IMG/VR virus record: IMGVR_UViG_3300046318_000318
Strand: one strand, 5' to 3'
Length of the DNA: 64,000 nt
Source of the DNA: a virus
Taxonomy: Duplodnaviria; Caudoviricetes
Shown here: positions 2,841-45,191 of the stretch, one piece after another
Layout of the letters: every line of letters begins with the position of its first letter
Position numbering within the stretch: the stretch's first letter is position 1
Notes under the pieces: model-generated
Database searches by the model: none
What the model saw: the letters and a program-made list of their open reading frames with translations, nothing else
Told to the model about the DNA's origin: nothing
Translations under genes and position numbers: made by a program

Positions 2841-3185
2841 CATAACTACCTCACTCTAGCTTTAACTAAGTTCGCTAAACTTATTGATCTTGCTTAAGGA
2901 TCCTGATACTTTCATATCAGATTAGACTATATCTTCATCTTTCGATGCTCTTCGTTTCCACTCGCTTGAGTGTACTCCCATGTGGGATAGTCGTTGACCA
3001 CACTCCATGTAAGTATATATGTCTATACTTAGTTAGGAGCTTCGGTGCGGATTGCCCAATCCTTGTATCTTTTACCATACCCAGATAGTTACTCTGGCCA
3101 CTGCATATATTTCTATCGCAGTTTGGTGCACAAGGCTCTAAGGAGTTTCCCGCAATTAGAAGAGTTTAAACGACGGCAACACTCT
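2841..3185 (-). ncRNA. group I intron 2 (ORF-less, 345 nt) in the RNAP gene
   Basis: P AATTGCGGGAAA, Q AATCCGCA, R GTCAACGACTA, S AAGATATAGTC; P1 GACGGU/GCCGUC with U.G at the splice site; P10 AGAGUGUU/GACGCUCU; ends in G. Confidence 0.92.
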
Positions 3186-3206
3186 ACCGTCAAAATCAGC
3201 ATTTGG
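3186..3206 (-). CDS. nvRNAP beta-prime subunit, 21-nt micro-exon 2 (PNADFDG)
   Basis: CCA AAT GCT GAT TTT GAC GGT between two intron cores; restores HILTVRAPNADFDGD, same spacing as bacterial HPLVCAAYNADFDGD. Confidence 0.9.
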
Positions 3207-5197
3207 CTTATTGTCCAGTAAAGTCGCTCAGCTTCACAGCTTACCCTCTTTACCCGGTGCGCTTACACACCCACCTGTACTTTCATACAGGAACAGATCA
3301 TATCTTCATCCTTATTAAAGGATGCTCTCCGCTTCTTCCCTGCTTAGGGCTTTACTCGGTCGCAACTCCGATGATCGTTGAACTTTACGCATGGTTGATA
3401 AGAATCAACTTTAGCGTCTTAGCTGCTGATTACCCAATTCTTATATTTTTCAAACTATCACGCTCATCGTTTCCGATCACGTTGTAGTATATAAGACTCT
3501 AAAGGACTTCCCAGCAATTCAAAGAGATAACTTAGTCAATTACTCAACTAAGTGCCTTATCTCATCATTATTAAAATACAATGTCAATCGCCACACACCG
3601 CCTATCAATGCTTTTCTTCTAGCTATTGTAGGGATATATTGTCTAGCATACCCAAATTGCTGACTAATATCTATAGGACTTGTTATAATCCTAGTTTCGC
3701 CAGTTTCAACGTTTTCGATAAAATATCCGTTACCCCTAAAAGATCTTTTATCGAGACATAATTGTTTAAAGTACCTCAGCTCCTTATCGGTAAGATCTTT
3801 AAACTGTCCGTTGAAACTAAATTGCCAACCTTTAATCGGAATGTTCTTTAATCTTTTATTTTTAATAGATAGTTGAACACCCCATGAAACACCAGTTATT
3901 TTCTCACAAGCTGCCAGCGATTCAAATTTACGTTCTTTGCGTGTGAATATATTTCTAGCAGTAACTGGTATTTTTATTTGTAAATCTTCTAAGGATGGTT
4001 TTTCCTGAGGCCATGGTCTTGCATCTAATTTTCGTTTGAAACATAATCCGTCTGAATAGATTTTAATATCGGAAGATCTAAGTCTGACGGACACGGTTAG
4101 TTCAGAATATCCAAGTTTCAGAGAGCAATCCCTAGCACTTTTATATTCAGTCACCTCATCCGTGATTATGTTTTTAACAAGTATTGCTGAACCATACCTG
4201 AATTGATCGTACTCATTTTCTAAATTTTCATAATTTTTCCATTCTTTTAATTCAGATAGCCATTGAAACTGCATGTAATTTTCCCAAAGTTTACAACCGG
4301 GTTTTGTTTTTAACCGATGGTAAAGTAAATCATTACTCAAGCCTAATGCAATTGCGCATTGCGTCGGGTTATCATAAATAGTGATTTCATTGGTTTTAAC
4401 ATTTCTAGTTATGACGTCTATGGTATACTTTTTCTCATTTTCAAGAATTCTATTTACTTTTTCATCAGATCTATCACAATTCGAATAAATGACATTTCCT
4501 CTAGGTGTCACCCATTCTAAATTATCTAAGGTGTCAAAGCCAGGTATCTCATTTTTATGATTTACGTACAGCGATTCAACGTTTCTAGGATAATCTAGCC
4601 ATGCTAAGCACATAGCTCTGTGTCTGAAAAATTTGTAAGATGTATTCTCATTAAGGGAAACATCAGGAATACCTGAATAGGAATGGTAACCATCTCTATC
4701 ACAAAAAGCTTTTTTATCCACACCAGTTATCAAATTTCTAACTTTTCCTTCCTTTGTTATACCATATCTTGTAAAACCAGGAATATAAGCATGATCTTTG
4801 TGTACTGGATGTGATAAACCAACTGGAAATTTCCAAATCAAGTTGCTAGGATGAGAGTTATTAAAATCACCGTCCTCGAACATCAAGTGTAATAAATGCA
4901 CTTGACTTTCATGAACGTGAACGGGCTTAAAAGCCGAAGCTATGATAAACTCTATTGGATATAGACCAGGACCTCTTATCCAATCTAAGAAAATCAAAGT
5001 GCTTCCTGTTTCAGTTGAGATACACTCAATCTGAATGTTCTCTCGCGATATGACATCACCTTCTGAGTTAACAGAATAACGACCGTCAGACCAGGGTAGC
5101 GAAAGATAGTTTTGGGTTTGTAAATATTTACTAAGCATATATCCTTTCTATATAGAAAGGTATGCTAAACGGCGATTGACAATAATGATAAGAATTA
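3207..5197 (-). mobile_element. group I intron 1 (1991 nt) carrying an HNH homing endonuclease
   Basis: After the ORF: P AATTGCTGGGAA, Q AATCAGCAG, R GTTCAACGATCA, S AAGATATGATC (P7 GAUCA/UGAUC); exon ends in U (GCT); intron ends in G. Confidence 0.9.
3540..5138 (-). CDS. intron-encoded HNH homing endonuclease with C-terminal DNA-binding repeats
   Basis: VNHKNEIPGFDTLDNLEWVT HNH motif, degenerate first copy DGDFNNSHPSNLIW, repeats such as YKSARDCSLKLG and FESLAACEKITG. Confidence 0.88.
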   Translation of the reverse strand: MLSKYLQTQNYLSLPWSDGRYSVNSEGDVISRENIQIECISTETGSTLIFLDWIRGPGLYPIEFIIASAFKPVHVHESQVHLLHLMFEDGDFNNSHPSNLIWKFPVGLSHPVHKDHAYIPGFTRYGITKEGKVRNLITGVDKKAFCDRDGYHSYSGIPDVSLNENTSYKFFRHRAMCLAWLDYPRNVESLYVNHKNEIPGFDTLDNLEWVTPRGNVIYSNCDRSDEKVNRILENEKKYTIDVITRNVKTNEITIYDNPTQCAIALGLSNDLLYHRLKTKPGCKLWENYMQFQWLSELKEWKNYENLENEYDQFRYGSAILVKNIITDEVTEYKSARDCSLKLGYSELTVSVRLRSSDIKIYSDGLCFKRKLDARPWPQEKPSLEDLQIKIPVTARNIFTRKERKFESLAACEKITGVSWGVQLSIKNKRLKNIPIKGWQFSFNGQFKDLTDKELRYFKQLCLDKRSFRGNGYFIENVETGETRIITSPIDISQQFGYARQYIPTIARRKALIGGVWRLTLYFNNDEIRHLVE

Positions 5198-6583: not shown

Positions 6584-8452
6584 TCAGTAGCGGTAACCAC
6601 CCATGTTGATGTAGTTCTGCATATGCTGAGGAGCCATGCCGAAACCCATGAACGATTGAGTAGGTGCCAGCAGACCAGCGTTGGCGAAACTTGCAACACC
6701 GCGTTGGTTGTTGAAGTCTGCACCAGACATTGGGCTGTTGATACGCACCATCAGGTTGCAAGCCTGAATACCCTTACGCAGAGCGTCCAGGAACGTAGCG
6801 CTGAAGGTCACTCGTTGAGCATAGCCTGTAAACACAGCGGACTCATTGGACATGCTGGAGATCATACGCTTGCGATCGGAGAGACGCTCTGCCAACGAGA
6901 TGTTGGTGTTCAGGTACGTTTCGGTGAACTGACGCAATGCATGCACATTGTTGGCACCAAGGATGTTGGCAGCTGCCAAGTAGTCGATGTCACGGATGTC
7001 ACGCTGAGCACCGTTGCGATCGGTGTAGTAACCCAGATGGACACGGTTACCCACATCCACGAACATCTGTGCGTTGTTCGGGAAATAGCGACCGAAGTTG
7101 CCAGCAGTCAGTTCCTGAGCAGCTTTGTACATGATGTCGTAAGCACCACCACCGCTTGCAGCAGCTGCACTGTACAGACCAGTATACCATGCCTGAGGAC
7201 CAGCTTCTGGGCAGTCAACAGCAACCATCAGACCAGGCTGAACCAGAGTGTTCAAGAACTGACCCAAGTTCTCAGTCGTAAAACTGGAAGACTTGGTGTC
7301 GAGGATGTTGCTGATACCAGTGGGTTGATTGTCAAAGTTGCCTTCGATGTTCAACGCACCTGCATCACGCAGATCCAAATCCTTAGTCATCTGGGGTCGG
7401 AAGATCTGGTAGTAGTTGTTGTTCAACGCCAGAGCATCCATGTTCGCCACTGCCAACAGCATGTTAGCTGGAGTGTATGCGTGAGCACTGGACAGAGTGG
7501 TGATCACAGCACGAGCTGCAAACTTCTGTGGCAAACGCTGTTGTGCAGGCATGTAGGGGTTGACCATGGGTTCACGAGGAGCCCAGAGCATTTCTACAAA
7601 GCCGCCAACTTCACTGATGCGAGTCTCACGACCGCCGCTGTTCAGACTGCGGTTCTGATTTTGGTTCTGATTGTTCTGAGCTGCAAAGCTCAGTTGGAAG
7701 TCAGAACGAATCAAGTTACCGACATCGTCAGCCACAGGTGTCGAACCAAAGGTCATGTTGATGACCAATTGTTGACCCGTAGGGATCTGCGACAGGTTCA
7801 GATCCTGGAACGTAGGAACCAGTTGAGACAACTCAGTACCGTTAGCCAAGCCAGCGTTCAGTGCCAGCTTATACACAGCAGCTTTGTCCTTCGTATTGAA
7901 AGTAGCTGGTACGACAGTGGCGTCGGTGAACCGCAGTTCGTGCTGAGGAAACGCACGACCAACAGCCGCCTTGGCTTTTGCAATCAAGATGTCGTCGAGA
8001 GCATCGCCCGCTACCCGATACAACTCGATTTGCTTTTGGTGGTGGTACTGCACCACAGGAGTGGGTTTGTCACCAGTTGCTTCGAGGATCAGCACATGGA
8101 ATGCTACCTTGTTAGGTACATCCTTCAGACGCATCGCCACGACCAGGCAAGAGAATGCCAGAGCCGTTTCGTTCTGGTTGTCCAGATCCAGAATGCTGAT
8201 CAGACTGTCAGAACTTGCGTTCTTGTAGATCTCAATAAGTGCGGTCTTGAGGTCGTTGTAAGCCTCAGACCCAATTGAGCGACCGATAGGGGCACCGAAG
8301 ATGTTACCGCCGGAACCGAAGTTCCAAGAAGATTTCACAGGTGCTTGTTGGGTAGCAGTAGCTGCTTGACCAGGAGAACCGGCTTGGGTGAAAGCGGTTG
8401 CTTCAGCAGAGGTTGCAGAAGCGGAAGAGTTGTTACCAGTATTGAGAGCCAT
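6584..8452 (-). CDS. chmA: chimallin, major phage nuclear shell protein (phiKZ gp54-like)
   Basis: 622 aa, low-complexity N-terminus then FGAPIGRSIGSE; host-like optimised codons; syntenic with the nvRNAP subunit. Confidence 0.85.
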   Translation of the reverse strand: MALNTGNNSSASATSAEATAFTQAGSPGQAATATQQAPVKSSWNFGSGGNIFGAPIGRSIGSEAYNDLKTALIEIYKNASSDSLISILDLDNQNETALAFSCLVVAMRLKDVPNKVAFHVLILEATGDKPTPVVQYHHQKQIELYRVAGDALDDILIAKAKAAVGRAFPQHELRFTDATVVPATFNTKDKAAVYKLALNAGLANGTELSQLVPTFQDLNLSQIPTGQQLVINMTFGSTPVADDVGNLIRSDFQLSFAAQNNQNQNQNRSLNSGGRETRISEVGGFVEMLWAPREPMVNPYMPAQQRLPQKFAARAVITTLSSAHAYTPANMLLAVANMDALALNNNYYQIFRPQMTKDLDLRDAGALNIEGNFDNQPTGISNILDTKSSSFTTENLGQFLNTLVQPGLMVAVDCPEAGPQAWYTGLYSAAAASGGGAYDIMYKAAQELTAGNFGRYFPNNAQMFVDVGNRVHLGYYTDRNGAQRDIRDIDYLAAANILGANNVHALRQFTETYLNTNISLAERLSDRKRMISSMSNESAVFTGYAQRVTFSATFLDALRKGIQACNLMVRINSPMSGADFNNQRGVASFANAGLLAPTQSFMGFGMAPQHMQNYINMGGYRY

Positions 8453-19632: not shown

Positions 19633-20244
19633 TCACTGTGTCATTCTCATGTCTGTTAAAATCAGTTTTCTGACTGTGGTTTCCAAGCCAGGGAAAACTG
19701 TCAAAACATTAGACATCAAGTTATTCCTTACCTTATTCCTAAGATTGAAGTCGTTATCTGCATTGGTAGGATCTGTCAGATACTTTAACCTATAGAAGTT
19801 AGCATACTCTATAATAGTCTTCTTAGAAGTAGTTAACAAAGGTCTCTGCACATTACCATTTTGATAAGCCATCACTCTACTTCTACCTTGACAGCTGGTC
19901 ATCAGGTACCATTCAGTAGCATCAGACAGATGATGACCTGTAAGTACAGGCTTATCCATAGATTGAAATATGGTGTTTCTTTTTCTAGACCAAAAGGATT
20001 CTAGAGATGTGGAGTTATCAAACTCAGACAACTTGAAGGTTTTATAAGCTAAACCAAGCTGATTAGCTGTCTCTTTACAGAAAGCCAGTTCAGTCTTACT
20101 AAAGTCTGTGTTATGATCCACAGTAAGTAAAGTTACATTAACTCTCTTCCTTAACAGAAGGTGTAAAAGTACGACCGAATCTATACCGCCTGAAAAAGCA
20201 AGGTAAACATCTTTTTGAAGAGTCTTAAGTACATTGAGTTTCAT
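19633..20244 (-). CDS. tilS: tRNA(Ile)-lysidine synthase, catalytic domain only
   Basis: PP-loop LAFSGGIDSVVL, TGHHLSDATE, RPLL, DPTN...RNKVR; start MKLNV. Confidence 0.85.
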   Translation of the reverse strand: MKLNVLKTLQKDVYLAFSGGIDSVVLLHLLLRKRVNVTLLTVDHNTDFSKTELAFCKETANQLGLAYKTFKLSEFDNSTSLESFWSRKRNTIFQSMDKPVLTGHHLSDATEWYLMTSCQGRSRVMAYQNGNVQRPLLTTSKKTIIEYANFYRLKYLTDPTNADNDFNLRNKVRNNLMSNVLTVFPGLETTVRKLILTDMRMTQ

Positions 20245-20252
20245 GTGTTGAG

Positions 20253-20305
20253 AAAAAAAGAAAAGACACAACTGCTCAGAATCTATAAGACTCTAAGCAG
20301 TTGTG
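20253..20305 (-). terminator. terminator-like hairpin after the tRNA pair
   Basis: CACAACTGCT...AGCAGTTGTG followed by a U-rich run on the minus strand. Confidence 0.6.
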
Positions 20306-20314
20306 CTTTTTTGT

Positions 20315-20626
20315 TGGTAGGCAGGATGAGATTCGAACTCACTATCTTCGGCTTCACATTTGTGTTAGTTTCCTAACTCTGTGGACTATATCACCATCCT
20401 TAACTTAATATTAGGATGTCGGGCGCTTTACTCTGTTATTAAGAAGATTCTACTTCTCAGATAGTCTCTGCACTTTCCTAGGGTATACCCTAAGCTTAGC
20501 TCAGTATTGCCGTCGTCATTATACGTTACGGTTTCACTGAATTCACCCGATTATTCAATACTGATTACTCAGTAAGGTCACCATTGAGATGAGGCCGCCG
20601 CTTATAACCCCTTAAGCTTCCCGCCT
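20315..20626 (-). tRNA. tRNA with CAU anticodon (probably Ile2), interrupted at 36/37; exons 20589-20626 and 20315-20354
   Basis: Acceptor AGGCGGG/CCTGCCT-A-CCA, loop CT-CAT|AA, T arm GTGAG-TTCGAAT-CTCAT; adjacent to tilS. Confidence 0.88.
20355..20588 (-). ncRNA. group I intron (IC3-like, 234 nt) in tRNA-CAU
   Basis: GAATTCAGTGAAACC, AATACTGAGCTAAGC, GTGCAGAGACTA, GATATAGTCC; P1 CAU/GUG; ends in G; layout like the Azoarcus tRNA-Ile intron. Confidence 0.9.
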
Positions 20627-32101: not shown

Positions 32102-32201
32102 AACAAAGCCAACATGAATCGAACATGTTAAGTAAATATAACCTTCTACGCAGAATAGCACTGCTCCAGTTAATTTACTTGCCTCTACCAGACGGCTTTG
32201 T
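32102..32201 (-). ncRNA. tRNA-like element without a normal anticodon arm
   Basis: 9-bp AACAAAGCC/GGCTTTGTT stem, TGGTAGAG D-loop-like segment, T arm AACATG-TTCGATT-CATGTT, 12-bp anticodon-position stem with 26-nt loop, no CCA. Confidence 0.6.
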
Positions 32202-33366
32202 TTCTCTATTTATTACAAGATAGAGAAGGATGTGTCAGTCACCGCATCCAAGATATTTATAACACCGACTCGTGTTACCGGTTTGTCCAAACCTGGTGAA
32301 AGGATAAGCTACATCTGTTTAACTCAATCGCCACATACCCAGTAGTTCAGGTAAGGGTTAAGATGATTGTGCTATAATAAGCACAGAGCCTTAATACGAC
32401 AGTGTTTTAATTCATCAACATAACACTGAAGATACCCGAGTTCTCAATAGAGAATCTCGCTGTATTTTTGATGCCTAAGCACTCTAAAGCTATCTCTCCT
32501 AAAATAAGAGATAGCTTATAGGCTGCTCTCTGGGGTGATCAATCCCAAAGTTTACAACTTCCCAAAGATATCATTCATACAGTTCCCGACCAAGGGTAGT
32601 CTATATAAGAGATATCCATAGGGCGTACGATTTGGCGGTTGGTTAGACCACCTTCTACTCCTTAACAAAAAGTTAAAGGCAGGCTATTATCGTGAGCGCA
32701 CCTCTTTCTATTACACACTTGTGATGTGTTTCGTCCTTGTGTTTAAAGCCTTAGGACTCATCAGATAGATAAGGCTCAAATGAAGTTTATGTGGCCTCAT
32801 TCTTTTATAAAGGGGTTTTCCCATAGCAGACTAAATGACTTCTGTCTATCTAATCTGCTACAGGCAAACACCTGAGTGCTAACTTGTTATCATATCACAA
32901 AGGTAGATAACCACAACCTATTACAATAAAGACGTGTGAATCGCCTGCTTGCTTTGGCAAGAACAGCCCTCGAAGCTAGAGCCACATCAGGTCTGAACAA
33001 TCGTCAGAACACATGATCCCAGGGGATTTAAAAAGCATCAAACACAGTTCTGGGAAACTATGTGCTAGATCGACAGTTTATATTTTCCTTGTTTTATCAA
33101 CTAAGTGAAAATACCGATCACTTTATACTGCTCCATCGTGCGTGTATTTTGTTATCACGCTAACGTCCCGATAGTACGTTTACCTAAGTTACCAATGGTC
33201 AATACCTGCACCCTAGCCTTACGCCCGCAAGCGATCTATTAACTTAACTCCGTAATCCGCAATGATATACGCACATTAAGAAATGTTTACACACTAGATT
33301 TACTAAGCAGCGACTTGTTAGTTACCATTGATACGATCAAGTCTACTCCGGTTTACTTAGGTTAAA
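32202..33366 (-). ncRNA. long ORF-free structured region containing a hammerhead
   Basis: No ORF of 60 aa or more in ~1.15 kb; many hairpins. Confidence 0.55.
32707..32769 (-). ncRNA. type I hammerhead ribozyme, predicted cleavage after GUA (between 32712 and 32711)
   Basis: UCUAU-CUGAUGA-GUCC..GGAC-GAAA-CACA..UGUG-UA|AUAGA: all core nucleotides and three helices present. Confidence 0.88.
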
Positions 33367-33425
33367 TGGTACCAGGAACGGGACTCGAACCCGTAAGACC
33401 CTTGCGGAAGTATTAAGTTTTTAAA
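33367..33425 (-). pseudogene. 3' half of a broken tRNA-Leu
   Basis: TTTAAAA remnant loop, long variable arm with GCAA loop, ACGGG-TTCGAGT-CCCGT, TCCTGGT-A-CCA. Confidence 0.75.
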
Positions 33426-33434
33426 GTACATGGG

Positions 33435-33743
33435 TGGCCCGCTCCGGAATCGAACCGGAACGCCCCTTACGAAAGCGTCAGATTTTAAGTCTGATCTCTA
33501 CCACTGCAGTTTTCACTGCCACTTTAGTGTGTTTGTGGTCTGGACTATCCCTTCAACTACATCCTAAATGTTTAGCTGGGCGATTATAGTCTCTGCACGT
33601 CTTTCTATATTTCTATAGAAATTTCGCTCAGGATTGGCATCAGCAATTAACTGTTAAGCTTTCCCTGAATTTACGCCATTTTACTACATTATTTCTAATG
33701 TAGGACACATCAAATATATGTCTACCTATTTCATCAGCGGGCC
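33435..33743 (-). tRNA. tRNA-Leu(UAA) interrupted in the D arm at 25/26; exons 33718-33743 and 33435-33495; CCA not encoded
   Basis: GGCCCGC/GCGGGCC-A, GGTAGACAT|A, TCAGA-CTTAAAA-TCTGA, long variable arm, TCCGG-TTCGATT-CCGGA. Confidence 0.9.
33496..33717 (-). ncRNA. group I intron (IC3-like, 222 nt) in the tRNA-Leu D arm
   Basis: AAATTCAGGGAAA, AATCCTGAGC, GTGCAGAGACTA, GGATAGTCC; P1 GACAU/GUGUC, P10 AUCAGA/UUUGAU; ends in G. Confidence 0.92.
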
Positions 33744-33754
33744 ACCCATGTACT

Positions 33755-34255
33755 CTATTTCTTTTCTAATCTGTAGTATTCTTTCTTTATTTCAGTTCTT
33801 TCGATGATCACGCCGCCATTTTGAACTTTGGCGCCATAAGAACCTGAACATTTTTTACTACAAAAAGGACCTGCTCTATTAGAAACATAATTAGTTATCT
33901 GATTTTTACTAGGGGTAAATATTTCCTCACACCCAGCACACTTTACAGGATCCACCTTTACTCGTTTAGCGTCTTCACTTGCGTGAACAGGCAGTGTTTT
34001 AACAATAAGGTTATTTAGAGAATTATTGGTGAAATTTCTATCGTGATGGTCAACAGTCTCACCGTCTTTTAACTTTTGTTTTAATTCAATTTCTTTTAAA
34101 GCCTTGGGGTAAGAGATGGTTTTGGTCTTACCTTTAGTCCCCTTAGCAGCTTTTGAATTATTTAAAACAATATGCTGTCGACCATCACTTCTGTGATAAG
34201 GACCTAAGACGGATGTATATTCTGGATATAATCCAAGAAGTATTTGCTTATCCAT
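33755..34255 (-). CDS. free-standing HNH endonuclease with C-terminal Cys4 Zn finger
   Basis: ETVDHHDRNFTNNSLNNL; CAGC...FCSKKC. Confidence 0.85.
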   Translation of the reverse strand: MDKQILLGLYPEYTSVLGPYHRSDGRQHIVLNNSKAAKGTKGKTKTISYPKALKEIELKQKLKDGETVDHHDRNFTNNSLNNLIVKTLPVHASEDAKRVKVDPVKCAGCEEIFTPSKNQITNYVSNRAGPFCSKKCSGSYGAKVQNGGVIIERTEIKKEYYRLEKK

Positions 34256-34260
34256 GTTTT

Positions 34261-34286
34261 CCCTTTACCGATTTGGGCATCCTGGT
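34261..34286 (-). pseudogene. 5' half (positions 1-25) of the broken tRNA-Leu
   Basis: ACCAGGA-TG-CCC-AAATCGGTAAA-GGG; ACCAGGA pairs perfectly with TCCTGGT of the 3' half. Confidence 0.78.
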
Positions 34287-43646: not shown

Positions 43647-45191
43647 TTACATGTTCAAAGCGTAACCGACACAATACAGATAAGGCGTGACTCCATCAAA
43701 GGACTCCACCATAAAGCTGAATGTATCGATTTTGTTGTTGATCAAAGTAAGAGCTGGAGCTGCACCATCAGGGAACTTCACGTTAGCTGGGAATACAAGA
43801 TCACCACCTTTGTGAATAATAACCACTTTGTAGTCAAAACCTATCCGTGTGAGATCTAAGTTCTGAATATTGAAGTTGGTTACGTTAGAGATTAACTCTA
43901 TACGGATAACCTGATGAGTATCTAAATCCCAAGAAACAGTACCCGAAGCTGGCTGTACTTTATTGGTAGTAGAGACTTTCTGTGGTTTGGTGAAGTTATT
44001 CTCTGCGGAAGGAGACATGTAGTCTGTACCAGCAGCAGCTAAAGTCAATATGTTGTTGGTAGTCTTTAACAGACCTGTTCCGGCAACGTTGATACCACCA
44101 CCCACACCGCCACCTGTGCTTATTACACTGATGGCGTCTGATAAAGCCACCATATCGGTTATGATACCGTTACCAGTAATACCTGGGGTGATGCCGTTAA
44201 CTATGTCTGATAAAGCAGTTAAGCTTGTGATGTCAGCTTTTAAAACATTTATACCATTGACTGTGTCAGTCAATGCATCTAAGGCAACCTGACTGGCTTT
44301 ACTCAGAGAAAGAGCATTTACCGTATCACTTAAGACATCAAGATCTACCTGCGTAGCTTTAAGCTGATTAATTTGATTAACCAAATCACTCAATGCATCC
44401 AAATCTACTTGACTTGCTTTACCAGCTATCAATACAGAATGCGATTGAATAAGGGTAGTCAGTGCGGTGATTTCAGCATTTATAGCTGTAAGGTCTACAG
44501 TACCGCCACCGCCACCACCGCCCCCAGCTTGTAAGTTTGTTACTGCTGTTTGCAGATTGGTAATGATAGTAGACAAACCAGAAGTGTCAGCAATAGCGTG
44601 TCCATGACCAATAGCTGATTTACCTGCTAAACTGGTTTGGATAGAACCTAAACTATCATTCAGTCCCGATATGCTAGACATGTCATGAACATGACTAACA
44701 GCTGCTTTACCAGCCAATGCTGGTGATAATCCAGCTATAGTAGTCATGTCGTGTACATGACCAGTTTCAGCTTTCATAGACAAAGTCTGTGCTAAGAGAC
44801 TGATATCATCTATAGCGTGCGTATGGCCTAAAGCAGCCTTACCAGCCAACGACAGATCAAGACCACTTATCTCAGAGCTAACGTGCGTATGTCCAAAATT
44901 AGACTTGCCAGCCAGAGCCGTCATCAAACCTGAGATATCATCTGTAGCTAGGGTATGTGTGTGATTTGCATCAGCTTTACTTAGCAAAGCAGTCAGCACA
45001 GCAGTTGATACTGGCTTATCGGCATCACTTGTGTTGCTGACATTACCCAGACCCACATCTTGTTTAGTGAGTATAGATTTAAAAGTATTCAGAGTCATTC
45101 GGTAATTCTGATTACCAAATATCAAAGACACTTGTTCCAGACCTGTGGCTGTGGTTAACAGCGAAAAGTCACTTATCTTTCTATTAGCCAT
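43647..45191 (-). CDS. tail fibre with HxH repeats and C-terminal beta domain
   Basis: MANRKISDF N-domain, HxH repeats, coiled-coil repeats, Gly tracts. Confidence 0.8.
   Translation of the reverse strand: MANRKISDFSLLTTATGLEQVSLIFGNQNYRMTLNTFKSILTKQDVGLGNVSNTSDADKPVSTAVLTALLSKADANHTHTLATDDISGLMTALAGKSNFGHTHVSSEISGLDLSLAGKAALGHTHAIDDISLLAQTLSMKAETGHVHDMTTIAGLSPALAGKAAVSHVHDMSSISGLNDSLGSIQTSLAGKSAIGHGHAIADTSGLSTIITNLQTAVTNLQAGGGGGGGGTVDLTAINAEITALTTLIQSHSVLIAGKASQVDLDALSDLVNQINQLKATQVDLDVLSDTVNALSLSKASQVALDALTDTVNGINVLKADITSLTALSDIVNGITPGITGNGIITDMVALSDAISVISTGGGVGGGINVAGTGLLKTTNNILTLAAAGTDYMSPSAENNFTKPQKVSTTNKVQPASGTVSWDLDTHQVIRIELISNVTNFNIQNLDLTRIGFDYKVVIIHKGGDLVFPANVKFPDGAAPALTLINNKIDTFSFMVESFDGVTPYLYCVGYALNM

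What the first reader, a model, noticed from the sequence alone, without database searches (positions are those of the whole stretch)
33435..33743. Group I intron in the D arm (25/26) of tRNA-Leu(UAA), not the anticodon loop
Seen: the anticodon arm is intact in the 3' exon. P1 (GACAU/GUGUC with U.G, extended by AU/AU) and P10 (AUCAGA/UUUGAU) both point to the GACAU|AUCAGA junction, which restores the D stem A10-U25, U11-A24, G12-C23. Established: the classical bacterial tRNA group I introns are in anticodon loops, and the known tRNA-Leu(UAA) intron is at 34/35. I cannot exclude a report in recent surveys. P1 competes directly with the D stem.
Basis: partly seen in the sequence, partly recalled or inferred. 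Interest (0 to 1): 0.85.

Follow-up and report, generated by a model that had tools for sequence, protein, structure and literature searches.

The report
Self-splicing intron in tRNA D arm
A giant freshwater phage carries a leucine tRNA gene split by a self-splicing (group I) intron right after the D arm instead of in the anticodon loop, the only place such introns were known in tRNAs; relatives show the arrangement is conserved and travels with a DNA-cutting enzyme that destroys rival tRNA-Leu genes.

Summary
Confirmed and extended. On the minus strand, 33743-33718 (exon 1), 33717-33496 (a 222-nt group I intron, Rfam 59.7 bits) and 33495-33435 (exon 2) join into a canonical 87-nt tRNA-Leu(UAA). 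The junction lies between nt 25 and 26.

P1 has a U.G pair at the 5' splice site.

I found three further, diverged copies of the 25/26 intron (L153/L154, L399, L400) beside homologues of the same HNH gene. In them P1, P10, the D stem and most core helices covary: 33 pairs carry double changes. tRNA nt 24 covaries with both nt 11 and the intron guide sequence.

The gene sits in an ~860-nt cassette, made of an HNH endonuclease plus its own tRNA-Leu. The cassette has split and killed the resident tRNA-Leu(UAA) at about nt 27; a close relative (L080) keeps that gene intact. More than 60 phage loci show the same kill-and-replace nests.

No spliced RNA was seen; contigs from the metatranscriptome runs were inconclusive. 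I found no report of a group I intron outside the anticodon loop of a tRNA.

The scan had noted anticodon-loop introns in phage tRNAs on other DNA, but no D-arm case. First readers noted this same stretch under three other entries: e1-5322806, e1-5322835 and e1-5322807.

The parts
34259..34286 (-). 5' remnant (nt 1-27, acceptor strand plus D arm) of the resident tRNA-Leu(UAA), now dead
   Evidence: Aligns to nt 1-27 of the intact tRNA-Leu(UAA) at L080:7216-7304 in a close relative.
33755..34255 (-). Free-standing HNH endonuclease gene (166 aa)
   Evidence: Matches phrog_14913 at E 9e-15 and Pfam HNH_3 weakly. It has 147 homologues. D-H...N...H and four Cys are invariant in an alignment of 30 of them.
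33744..33757 (-). Leader strand of a 14-bp helix that prolongs the acceptor stem; it overlaps the HNH stop codon
   Evidence: Pairs with 33435-33422, that is the discriminator A73 (33435) plus the trailer 33434-33422, in the predicted fold. The helix covaries in L153, L399, L400, L089 and L398.
33718..33743 (-). Exon 1 of tRNA-Leu(UAA): nt 1-25 (acceptor 5' strand and whole D arm); the last five bases GACAU form the 5' strand of P1
33496..33717 (-). Group I intron, 222 nt, without an ORF. It has P1-P2 (GAAA loop), P3, P4, P5/5a, P6/6a (GAAA), P7, P8, P9 and P9.1 (GAAA), the tail AGUGGUAGAG and omega-G at 33496
   Evidence: Rfam 59.7 bits. Helices are supported by covariation in 14 lineage members and in 4 copies at 25/26.
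33704..33714 (-). Internal guide sequence UUUGAU-GUGUC: GUGUC pairs with exon 1 (P1, U.G at the splice site) and UUUGAU pairs with exon 2 (P10)
   Evidence: Read directly from the sequence. P1 and P10 covary with the exons in L399 and L400.
33542..33593 (-). P7 strands (33593-33587 and 33547-33542), with G-A(bulge)-G opposite C-C: the presumed guanosine-binding site
   Evidence: Invariant in 14 of 14 relatives, 100% paired. The role as G-binding site is assigned from general knowledge of group I introns.
33435..33495 (-). Exon 2: A26, complete anticodon arm (UCAGA CUUAAAA UCUGA), long variable arm, T arm, acceptor 3' strand and discriminator A
33422..33434 (-). Trailer strand of the extended helix (reads CCC, so CCA is not fully encoded)
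33367..33400 (-). 3' remnant (part of the variable arm, T arm, acceptor 3' strand, ACCA) of the resident tRNA-Leu(UAA)
   Evidence: Aligns to the 3' end of L080:7216-7304. Its acceptor strand UCCUGGU is complementary to ACCAGGA at 34286.

Best explanation
The stretch is a working tRNA-Leu(UAA) gene interrupted between nt 25 and 26 by an ORF-less group I intron. The intron belongs to the compact lineage otherwise found in the anticodon loops of phage tRNAs. In the precursor, the last five exon bases (GACAU, which are the D-loop end plus the 3' strand of the D stem) pair with the intron guide sequence to form P1, with U25.G at the splice site. A 21-bp helix (the 7-bp acceptor stem prolonged by 14 bp of leader and trailer) holds the two exons together. 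Guanosine attack frees U25. P10 (AUCAGA with UUUGAU) and omega-G at 33496 then line up exon 2, and ligation gives GACAU-AUCAGA. After that the released strand refolds into the D stem. These steps are inferred from anatomy and covariation, not observed. The gene is the cargo of a mobile cassette made of an HNH homing endonuclease plus its own tRNA-Leu(UAA). The cassette has landed in the resident tRNA-Leu(UAA) and replaced its function. I infer that the HNH enzyme cuts tRNA-Leu(UAA) genes between the D arm and the anticodon loop. I further infer that the intron, by splitting that site in a tRNA that otherwise keeps the target-like sequence, protects the cassette's own copy.
For: The intron is real. 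Rfam scores it 59.7 bits. The copies in L153, L399 and L400 score 59.3, 56.4 and 59.6 bits.

The junction is supported in several ways. P1, the U.G pair, P10 and omega-G all point to 25/26. All four spliced products are called tRNA-Leu(UAA).

Covariation among the four 25/26 copies is strong. 97.1% of cells are paired and 33 pairs carry changes on both sides. The covariation score is 0.406, against 0.168 when shuffled and at most 0.085 when slid. P1 is GACAU/GUGUC in three copies and GACGU/GCGUC in L400, while the D stem is AUG/CAU versus ACG/CGU. P10 is AUCAGA/UUUGAU, AACAGA/UUAGUU and AAGAG/UUCUU in the different copies.

Between the window and L153 the HNH gene is 70.5% identical but the intron is 92.7% and the exons 97-100%. 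Four compensatory double changes fall in P3, P6 and P6a.

The core fold is supported in 14 members of the lineage.

The predicted precursor fold forms the 22-bp end helix, P1, P2 and three tRNA arms, with z = -8.6.

The cassette reading rests on L080, which has the intact resident tRNA-Leu and lacks the 860 nt. Nests with complementary outer halves occur in L088/L090, L114, L122 and L125. Dead 5' pieces end right after the D arm in about 20 loci.

The target-like motif GGTAGAC is found in 8 of 16 dead outer pieces, 7 of 13 intron-bearing inner genes and 1 of 26 intron-less inner genes.

TTA is the commonest Leu codon in 12 sampled window ORFs.
Against: There is no RNA evidence. Metatranscriptome contigs show only an unspliced piece (33577-33791) and no ligated junction, and they could derive from DNA.

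No intron-less allele of this exact tRNA body was found, so precise insertion and loss is not documented.

The HNH cut site, and the immunity supposedly given by the intron, are inferred from breakpoints and motif counts in related, non-independent loci. The loci span HNH proteins only 30-70% identical, which may differ in specificity.

The four 25/26 copies are one lineage, so they count as few independent events.

The extended helix also occurs with introns at 31/32, where the anticodon stem could still clamp the exons. Its role may therefore be processing rather than splicing.
Confidence: 0.8

Rival explanations
1. The intron-bearing tRNA is a dead by-product of recombination between tRNA-Leu genes and an anticodon-loop intron. 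Under this reading it no longer splices, and the phage relies on host tRNA-Leu.
For: The locus is a graveyard of tRNA-Leu fragments. The intron tail resembles a D loop (GGUAGAG), which at first looked like a relic. No spliced RNA was seen.
Against: The guide sequence matches both new exons. P1, P10, the D stem and the core helices covary across four copies. The intron and exons are much better conserved than the adjacent ORF. The D-loop-like tail is a conserved trait of the whole intron lineage, UAGUGGUARG.
Confidence: 0.07
2. The intron is active but the products differ. One option is another 3' splice site (for example the G two bases upstream, giving CAU-AG-AUCAGA). Another is 5' cleavage or hydrolysis only, yielding tRNA halves held together by the long end helix.
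For: The tail has a second G (GGUAG-AG). In the most similar relatives the tail reads GGUAAG. The 21-bp helix could hold unligated halves together.
Against: P10 is contiguous only with the 33496/33495 site, and it covaries there. L364 has the same tail GGUAGAG directly before AAAA. Only the 25/26 product gives a canonical cloverleaf in all four copies.
Confidence: 0.06
3. The intron is functional but its position has nothing to do with the HNH enzyme. On this view it reached 25/26 by chance, for example by reverse splicing into AGACAU, which resembles the classical site AGACUU nine bases downstream. The neighbourhood of the HNH gene would then reflect only a shared liking for tRNA-Leu genes.
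For: The two sites are similar in sequence. Introns of this lineage occur without any HNH gene in many phage tRNAs.
Against: In HNH-linked inner tRNA-Leu genes, introns occupy three sites (25/26, 31/32, 34/35). These bracket the segment lost from the dead outer genes (nt 27-31). Intron-less inner genes avoid GGTAGAC, while intron-bearing ones keep it.
Confidence: 0.3
4. The arrangement is an assembly artefact or chimera.
For: The window comes from a metagenome, and the locus contains repeated tRNA-like pieces.
Against: The 1-kb stretch is 100% identical in four independent assemblies (L081-L084, three JGI or Logan samples each from different runs), and L085 matches over the 593 bases it covers. 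22 runs from 22 studies hold it. Diverged copies have the same architecture.
Confidence: 0.01

Closest known systems
[quoted passage not shown]
   Same: It is a small ORF-less group I intron in the same tRNA species. The architecture is compact: P2, no P5abc, no P7.1/7.2, GNRA loops, and a P9/P9.1 tail ending in G. The nearest relatives found here sit in phage tRNA anticodon loops.
   Different: The insertion site is 25/26, nine bases upstream and outside the anticodon loop. P1 is built from the D arm rather than the anticodon stem and loop. The anticodon stem cannot bring the splice sites together. A long leader-trailer helix is present instead.
Group I introns in the T loop of the tRNA-like domain of tmRNA (cited in Williams 2020 preprint)
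   Same: This is a group I intron lodged in a tRNA-shaped fold outside an anticodon loop.
   Different: The host is tmRNA, not a decoding tRNA, and the site is the T loop, not the D stem/26 junction.
Non-canonical protein-spliced (bulge-helix-bulge) introns in D arms of archaeal and red-algal nuclear tRNAs (reviews PMC4033280, PMC4090602)
   Same: These are also introns at non-anticodon positions of tRNA genes, which gene finders miss.
   Different: They are short and cut by a splicing endonuclease at a bulge-helix-bulge motif, with no ribozyme. Here there is a full group I core.
Free-standing homing endonucleases in phages: T4 SegB in the tRNA gene cluster (PMC2330249), and 'collaborative homing' of a free-standing endonuclease with an ORF-less intron that splits its target (known to me from cyanophage S-PM2 F-CphI/psbA; that paper was not read here)
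   Same: An endonuclease gene sits next to tRNA genes and drives inheritance of its neighbourhood. An adjacent ORF-less intron may protect the endonuclease's own genome.
   Different: The enzyme is HNH, whereas SegB is GIY-YIG. The element carries a whole replacement tRNA gene and leaves the resident gene as two dead halves. Cleavage has not been shown.

Membership tests
Group I intron (Rfam RF00028) | Conserved catalytic core P3-P8 scoring above the curated threshold | tested here: met
   The score is 59.7 bits against a gathering score of 50. Relatives score 56-64 bits. P3, P4, P5, P6 and P9.1 are at least 96% paired with double changes, and P7 is invariant.
Group I intron (Rfam RF00028) | P1 with a U.G wobble at the 5' splice site, formed by the exon end and the internal guide sequence | tested here: met
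   GACAU pairs with GUGUC, and the single U.G is at U25. P1 is 100% paired in four copies, with a compensatory A:U to G:C change at -2.
Group I intron (Rfam RF00028) | Terminal guanosine (omega-G), and P10 pairing of the guide sequence with the 3' exon | tested here: met
   G at 33496 is followed by AUCAGA, which pairs with UUUGAU. All four copies end in G. P10 shows two compensatory changes read by hand; MAFFT misplaces one gap.
Group I intron (Rfam RF00028) | Guanosine-dependent self-splicing with exon ligation | not testable with these tools
   Only Logan contigs of metatranscriptome runs were available. An unspliced piece was seen and no ligated junction.
[quoted passage not shown] | Insertion at one of the eight positions of the anticodon loop | tested here: not met
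   The junction is 25/26 and the anticodon arm is complete in exon 2. That survey considered only anticodon-loop sites.
[quoted passage not shown] | Compact IC3-type architecture, related in sequence to other tRNA introns | tested here: inconclusive
   The nearest relatives (77% identity over the core) are anticodon-loop introns of phage tRNAs. The subgroup was assigned by eye from the helices present. No reference IC3 sequence was compared.
HNH homing endonuclease (Pfam HNH_3, phrog_14913) | HNH catalytic motif, and association with an intron or a target gene | tested here: met
   phrog_14913 matches at E 9e-15. D69, H70, N82, H91 and four Cys are invariant in 30 homologues. Homologues lie next to or inside tRNA-Leu(UAA) genes in nearly all 64 viral loci.
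Collaborative homing (free-standing endonuclease plus ORF-less intron) | The endonuclease cuts the intron-less allele at or near the intron insertion site, and the intron-bearing allele is resistant | not testable with these tools
   The support is indirect only. Dead outer genes end at nt 22-27 and resume at nt 30-35. GGTAGAC motif counts are given.

The most novel reading that the evidence does not exclude
This would be the first family of group I introns living inside the body of a decoding tRNA, at the D stem/26 junction. The same three nucleotides serve first as the P1 substrate helix and then as the D stem. The family would have been selected as a shield that splits the recognition or cut site of the neighbouring HNH endonuclease. 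It would be one move in a widespread, undescribed 'kill-and-replace' contest. In that contest, HNH-plus-tRNA-Leu cassettes serially destroy resident phage tRNA-Leu(UAA) genes, and introns hop between sites 25/26, 31/32 and 34/35 of the cargo tRNA.
Probability: 0.5. Interest if true: 0.88.

Novelty: new variant of a known kind. Interest (0 to 1): 0.8.

Why it matters
Three decades of work place every group I intron of a decoding tRNA in the anticodon loop. There the anticodon stem helps to align the splice sites, and gene finders and surveys look only there. ARAGORN misses this gene, and with introns allowed it calls it tRNA-Val.

A conserved, covarying intron at 25/26 shows that the ribozyme can use the D arm as its substrate helix, and that a tRNA can tolerate this. 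It offers a natural system in which one strand must switch from P1 to the D stem. It also implies that hidden tRNA genes are being missed in phage genomes.

The context makes an old question testable: how free-standing homing endonucleases, introns and their target genes co-evolve. The same endonuclease family is seen with intron-less variant tRNAs and with introns at three different sites. It also leaves a clear trail of destroyed target genes.

Tried and rejected
- **Assembly artefact.** Rejected: independent assemblies are identical and diverged copies exist.
- **D-loop-like intron tail (GGUAGAG) as a relic of recombination with another tRNA-Leu.** Rejected: the tail UAGUGGUARG is conserved across the intron lineage, including introns in other tRNAs.
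- **The 3' half-tRNA at 33367-33400 as a tmRNA piece, an attP site or a permuted tRNA.** Rejected once L080 showed it is the end of the resident tRNA-Leu.
- **Exact-match scans for both junctions.** Viral, metagenome and genome collections gave 0 hits.
- **Scan with the T arm and acceptor of exon 2.** 0 hits.
- **Peptide-pattern search with the single HNH protein.** 0 hits; the search with an alignment worked.
- **BLAST of the gene against deposited phages.** Only short matches to intron cores.
- **Motif scan of 238 introns of the lineage.** No further D-arm case.
- **Metatranscriptome contigs.** No spliced junction, so inconclusive.
- **Whole-genome search.** No genome is held for this window.
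- **My first scoring of the L400 leader-trailer helix.** The script was too strict and gave 3 bp; by hand the helix has 14 of 16 pairs (and sequence).

Full report
**Setting.** The window has 40% G+C and comes from a nucleus-forming jumbo phage. It encodes a chimallin at 6584-8452 and a divergent family B DNA polymerase at 11047-13170. No whole genome is held for it. The same DNA occurs in many freshwater metagenomes. Rfam finds four group I introns in the window, one of them at 33727-33519 on the minus strand (59.7 bits, gathering score 50). ARAGORN finds no tRNA there.

Read on the minus strand, 33743-33718 gives GGCCCGC-UG-AUG-(D loop)-CAU. Next come 222 nt of intron (33717-33496). Then 33495-33435 gives A26, a complete anticodon arm with UAA, a long variable arm, the T arm, the acceptor 3' strand and discriminator A.
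- Joining the two exons gives an 87-nt RNA that ARAGORN calls tRNA-Leu(UAA), with a regular cloverleaf.
- The exon end GACAU plus intron AU pairs with AU plus GUGUC. The only U.G pair in this helix is at U25.
- The six bases 5' of that in the guide sequence (UUUGAU) pair with the first six bases of exon 2 (AUCAGA).
- The intron ends in G.
- At DNA level the junction could slide by two bases, since both the intron and exon 2 begin with AU. Only 25/26 has U before the 5' site and G before the 3' site.
- As a control, 79 viral contigs carry exactly the same anticodon arm. All are intron-less tRNA-Leu(UAA) genes in which the D stem runs directly into AUCAGA.

**The intron fold.** By hand, guided by Rfam and ViennaRNA, I could place these helices:
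- P1
- P2 (8 bp, GAAA loop)
- P3
- P4
- P5/P5a
- P6/P6a (GAAA loop)
- P7, with a G-A(bulge)-G opposite C-C arrangement
- P8
- P9
- P9.1 (GAAA loop)
- a tail, AGUGGUAGAG

A motif from P7/J7-9 (ATAGTCCAGACYACAA) retrieved 238 loci from the viral and metagenome collections. Where a tRNA-Leu exon could be recognised downstream, the intron sits at the classical 34/35 site in 53 loci. Other loci are in CAU-anticodon tRNAs at 33/34. On an alignment of 14 members, my structure has 81.9% of cells paired, against 64.9% when shuffled. Its covariation score is 0.418, against 0.16 shuffled and 0.07-0.12 when slid. P3, P4, P5, P6 and P9.1 are at least 96% paired with many double changes, and P7 is invariant. 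The tail, which looks like a D loop, is conserved across the lineage as UAGUGGUARG. It is therefore an intron feature, not a relic.

**More copies of the 25/26 intron.** The HNH protein encoded just upstream (34255-33755) has 147 homologues. [quoted passage not shown]
- L153/L154 (HNH 70% identical)
- L399 (HNH 66% identical)
- L400 (HNH 63% identical)

Their acceptor stems differ: GGCCCGC, CGGGGCA and CCGAGCA. All pass Rfam's threshold at 56-60 bits. All spliced products are called tRNA-Leu(UAA).

Between the window and L153 the HNH gene is 70.5% identical at DNA level. The intron is 92.7% identical and the exons 97-100%. The intron differences include four compensatory double changes, in P3, P6 and twice in P6a.

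On the four precursors, 97.1% of cells are paired and 33 pairs have changes on both sides. The covariation score is 0.406, against 0.168 shuffled and at most 0.085 slid.

The covariation at the junction itself carries the most weight:
- L400 has GACGU/GCGUC in P1 where the others have GACAU/GUGUC. It also has ACG/CGU in the D stem where the others have AUG/CAU. So tRNA nt 24 covaries with nt 11 and with the guide sequence. This is what is expected if the strand serves P1 first and the D stem afterwards.
- P10 reads AUCAGA/UUUGAU in the window and L153, AACAGA/UUAGUU in L399 (one mismatch), and AAGAG/UUCUU in L400. That gives two compensatory changes. MAFFT misplaces one gap, so undercounts them.

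**A conserved extra helix.** The leader and trailer prolong the acceptor stem by 13-17 bp. In the window, 33757-33744 pairs with 33435-33422; the discriminator is included and the HNH stop codon lies inside the helix.
- The helix is present, with quite different sequences, in all six genes whose intron is at 25/26 or at 31/32: the window, L153, L399, L400 (14 of 16 pairs by hand), L089 and L398.
- It is absent (0-5 bp) from 7 genes with anticodon-loop introns and from 22 intron-less genes of the same kind of locus.
- The predicted fold of the precursor forms this helix, P1, P2 and the three other tRNA arms, with z = -8.6.
- It may clamp the exons, or it may be an RNase III-type processing site that frees the tRNA from the HNH message. 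Both ideas are inference.

**The surroundings.** A close relative, L080, shares 97% protein identity in the neighbouring DprA-like gene. It has an intact, different tRNA-Leu(UAA) at 7216-7304 and lacks about 860 nt that the window has.
- In the window that resident gene is in two pieces: nt 1-27 at 34286-34259, and the last 34 nt at 33400-33367.
- Between them lie the HNH gene and the intron-bearing tRNA-Leu.
- The resident anticodon arm is gone.

A search with an alignment of HNH homologues gave 64 viral loci. In nearly all of them the HNH gene abuts a tRNA-Leu(UAA) on the same strand.
- About 20 loci also carry a dead 5' piece of another tRNA-Leu that ends just after the D arm, at nt 22-27.
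- About 10 carry a dead 3' piece that starts in the anticodon loop, at nt 30-35.
- Where both pieces are present, their acceptor strands are complementary (L088/L090, L114, L122, L125).
- L086 shows three layers of nesting.
- In L398 a tRNA of the window's own type has itself been displaced.

The cargo tRNA takes several forms:
- intron-less, in most loci;
- a group I intron at 34/35 (L090, L093, L116);
- a group I intron at 34/35 with the HNH gene inside it (L098, L113);
- a group I intron at 31/32 (L089, L398);
- a group I intron at 25/26.

The D-loop motif GGTAGAC occurs in 8 of 16 dead outer pieces and in 7 of 13 intron-bearing cargo genes, but in only 1 of 26 intron-less cargo genes. Fisher p is about 8e-4 for each comparison, though the loci are not independent.

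I read this as a homing endonuclease that cuts tRNA-Leu(UAA) genes between the D arm and the anticodon loop. Its cargo copy escapes either by sequence change or by an intron that splits the site. This is inference; no cleavage data exist.

**RNA evidence.** Three freshwater metatranscriptome runs hold parts of the stretch, as Logan contigs. One contig covers the unspliced exon 1-intron boundary (33577-33791). No contig has the ligated junction. The abundant short contigs over 33444-33492 are tRNA-Leu genes of other organisms. The result is inconclusive.

**Literature.**
- A 2014 review states that all phage group I introns known then lie in protein genes (PMC3984707).
- A 2020 preprint surveyed 81,000 genomes and raised the number of tRNA-intron types to 21. 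By design it tested only the eight anticodon-loop positions. It also mentions T-loop introns in tmRNA.
- Reviews of tRNA gene diversity place bacterial and plastid group I introns in the anticodon loop.
- Searches combining 'group I intron' with D-arm, D-stem, D-loop, phage-encoded tRNA or jumbo phage found no report of such an intron.
- The library covers open-access papers only, so an earlier report cannot be excluded.
- Earlier notes of this scan describe phage tRNA introns in anticodon loops and HNH genes beside them on other DNA, but none in a D arm.

**Verdict.** The evidence that this intron is under selection as an RNA, and that its splice sites are 25/26, is strong but comparative. 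Splicing itself, the endonuclease's cut site and the protective role of the intron remain to be shown.

Noticed in passing
window 32707-32769 (-): A complete type I hammerhead ribozyme candidate: stem I UCUAU/AUAGA, CUGAUGA, stem II GUCCU..AGGAC, GAAAC, a stem III hairpin, and a cut after GUA. All three stems covary in L086 (about 1407-1475) and L153 (about 171-250). Rfam scores it only 16 bits.
   Followed up: partly
window 32115-33366 (-): A 1.25-kb stretch without ORFs lies next to the tRNA nest. It is 93.7% identical in L080, and comparable ORF-free stretches lie beside the nests in L086 and L153. It is probably one or more structured RNAs. No Rfam family matches apart from the weak hammerhead.
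   Followed up: partly
L080:6617-7150: In the close relative the neighbouring tRNA-Thr (intact in the window at 34425-34351) is broken after 17 nt by about 490 nt that carry a different HNH ORF. A diverged 3' part follows. The two phages thus carry endonuclease insertions in different tRNA genes of the same cluster.
   Followed up: partly
L089:3022-3351 and L398:1277-1604: tRNA-Leu(UAA) genes (in L089 with the same acceptor, D and T arms as the window's) carry a group I intron (62-64 bits) between nt 31 and 32. It has A rather than U before the 5' splice site, with the guide-sequence G opposite the first intron base. This is an unusual splice-site geometry.
   Followed up: partly
L086:2290-3207: A three-layer nest. 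It holds the 5' pieces of two different tRNA-Leu genes, then the HNH gene, then an intact intron-less tRNA-Leu(UAA) with a strongly altered D arm, then the 3' piece that matches the outermost 5' piece.
   Followed up: yes
window 2903-3195, 3274-3584 and 20362-20615 (-): Three more group I introns (69-88 bits). Two are close together in the RNA polymerase beta-prime-like gene region, which first readers noted separately. One lies just upstream of a PP-loop (TilS-like) ORF at 19633-20271. Homologues of the HNH gene lie downstream of that PP-loop gene in L086 and L088.
   Followed up: no
L090:3925-4005 and 4258-4360: A near-threshold Twister-sister ribozyme match (31.7 bits against a gathering score of 34), and a 42-bit match to a piece of bacterial LSU rRNA. 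Both lie downstream of the tRNA-Leu nest of a related jumbo phage contig.
   Followed up: no
window 44628-44720 (-): ARAGORN calls a 93-nt tRNA-Met here, inside the 514-aa tail-fibre-like ORF 43647-45191. Rfam does not support it, so it is probably a false call.
   Followed up: no
window 33435-33743 (-): With introns allowed, ARAGORN miscalls this gene as tRNA-Val(GAC) with a 217-nt anticodon-loop intron. The same happens for L153, and L399 and L400 are miscalled as Tyr and Phe. Standard pipelines will misannotate or miss this class.
   Followed up: yes
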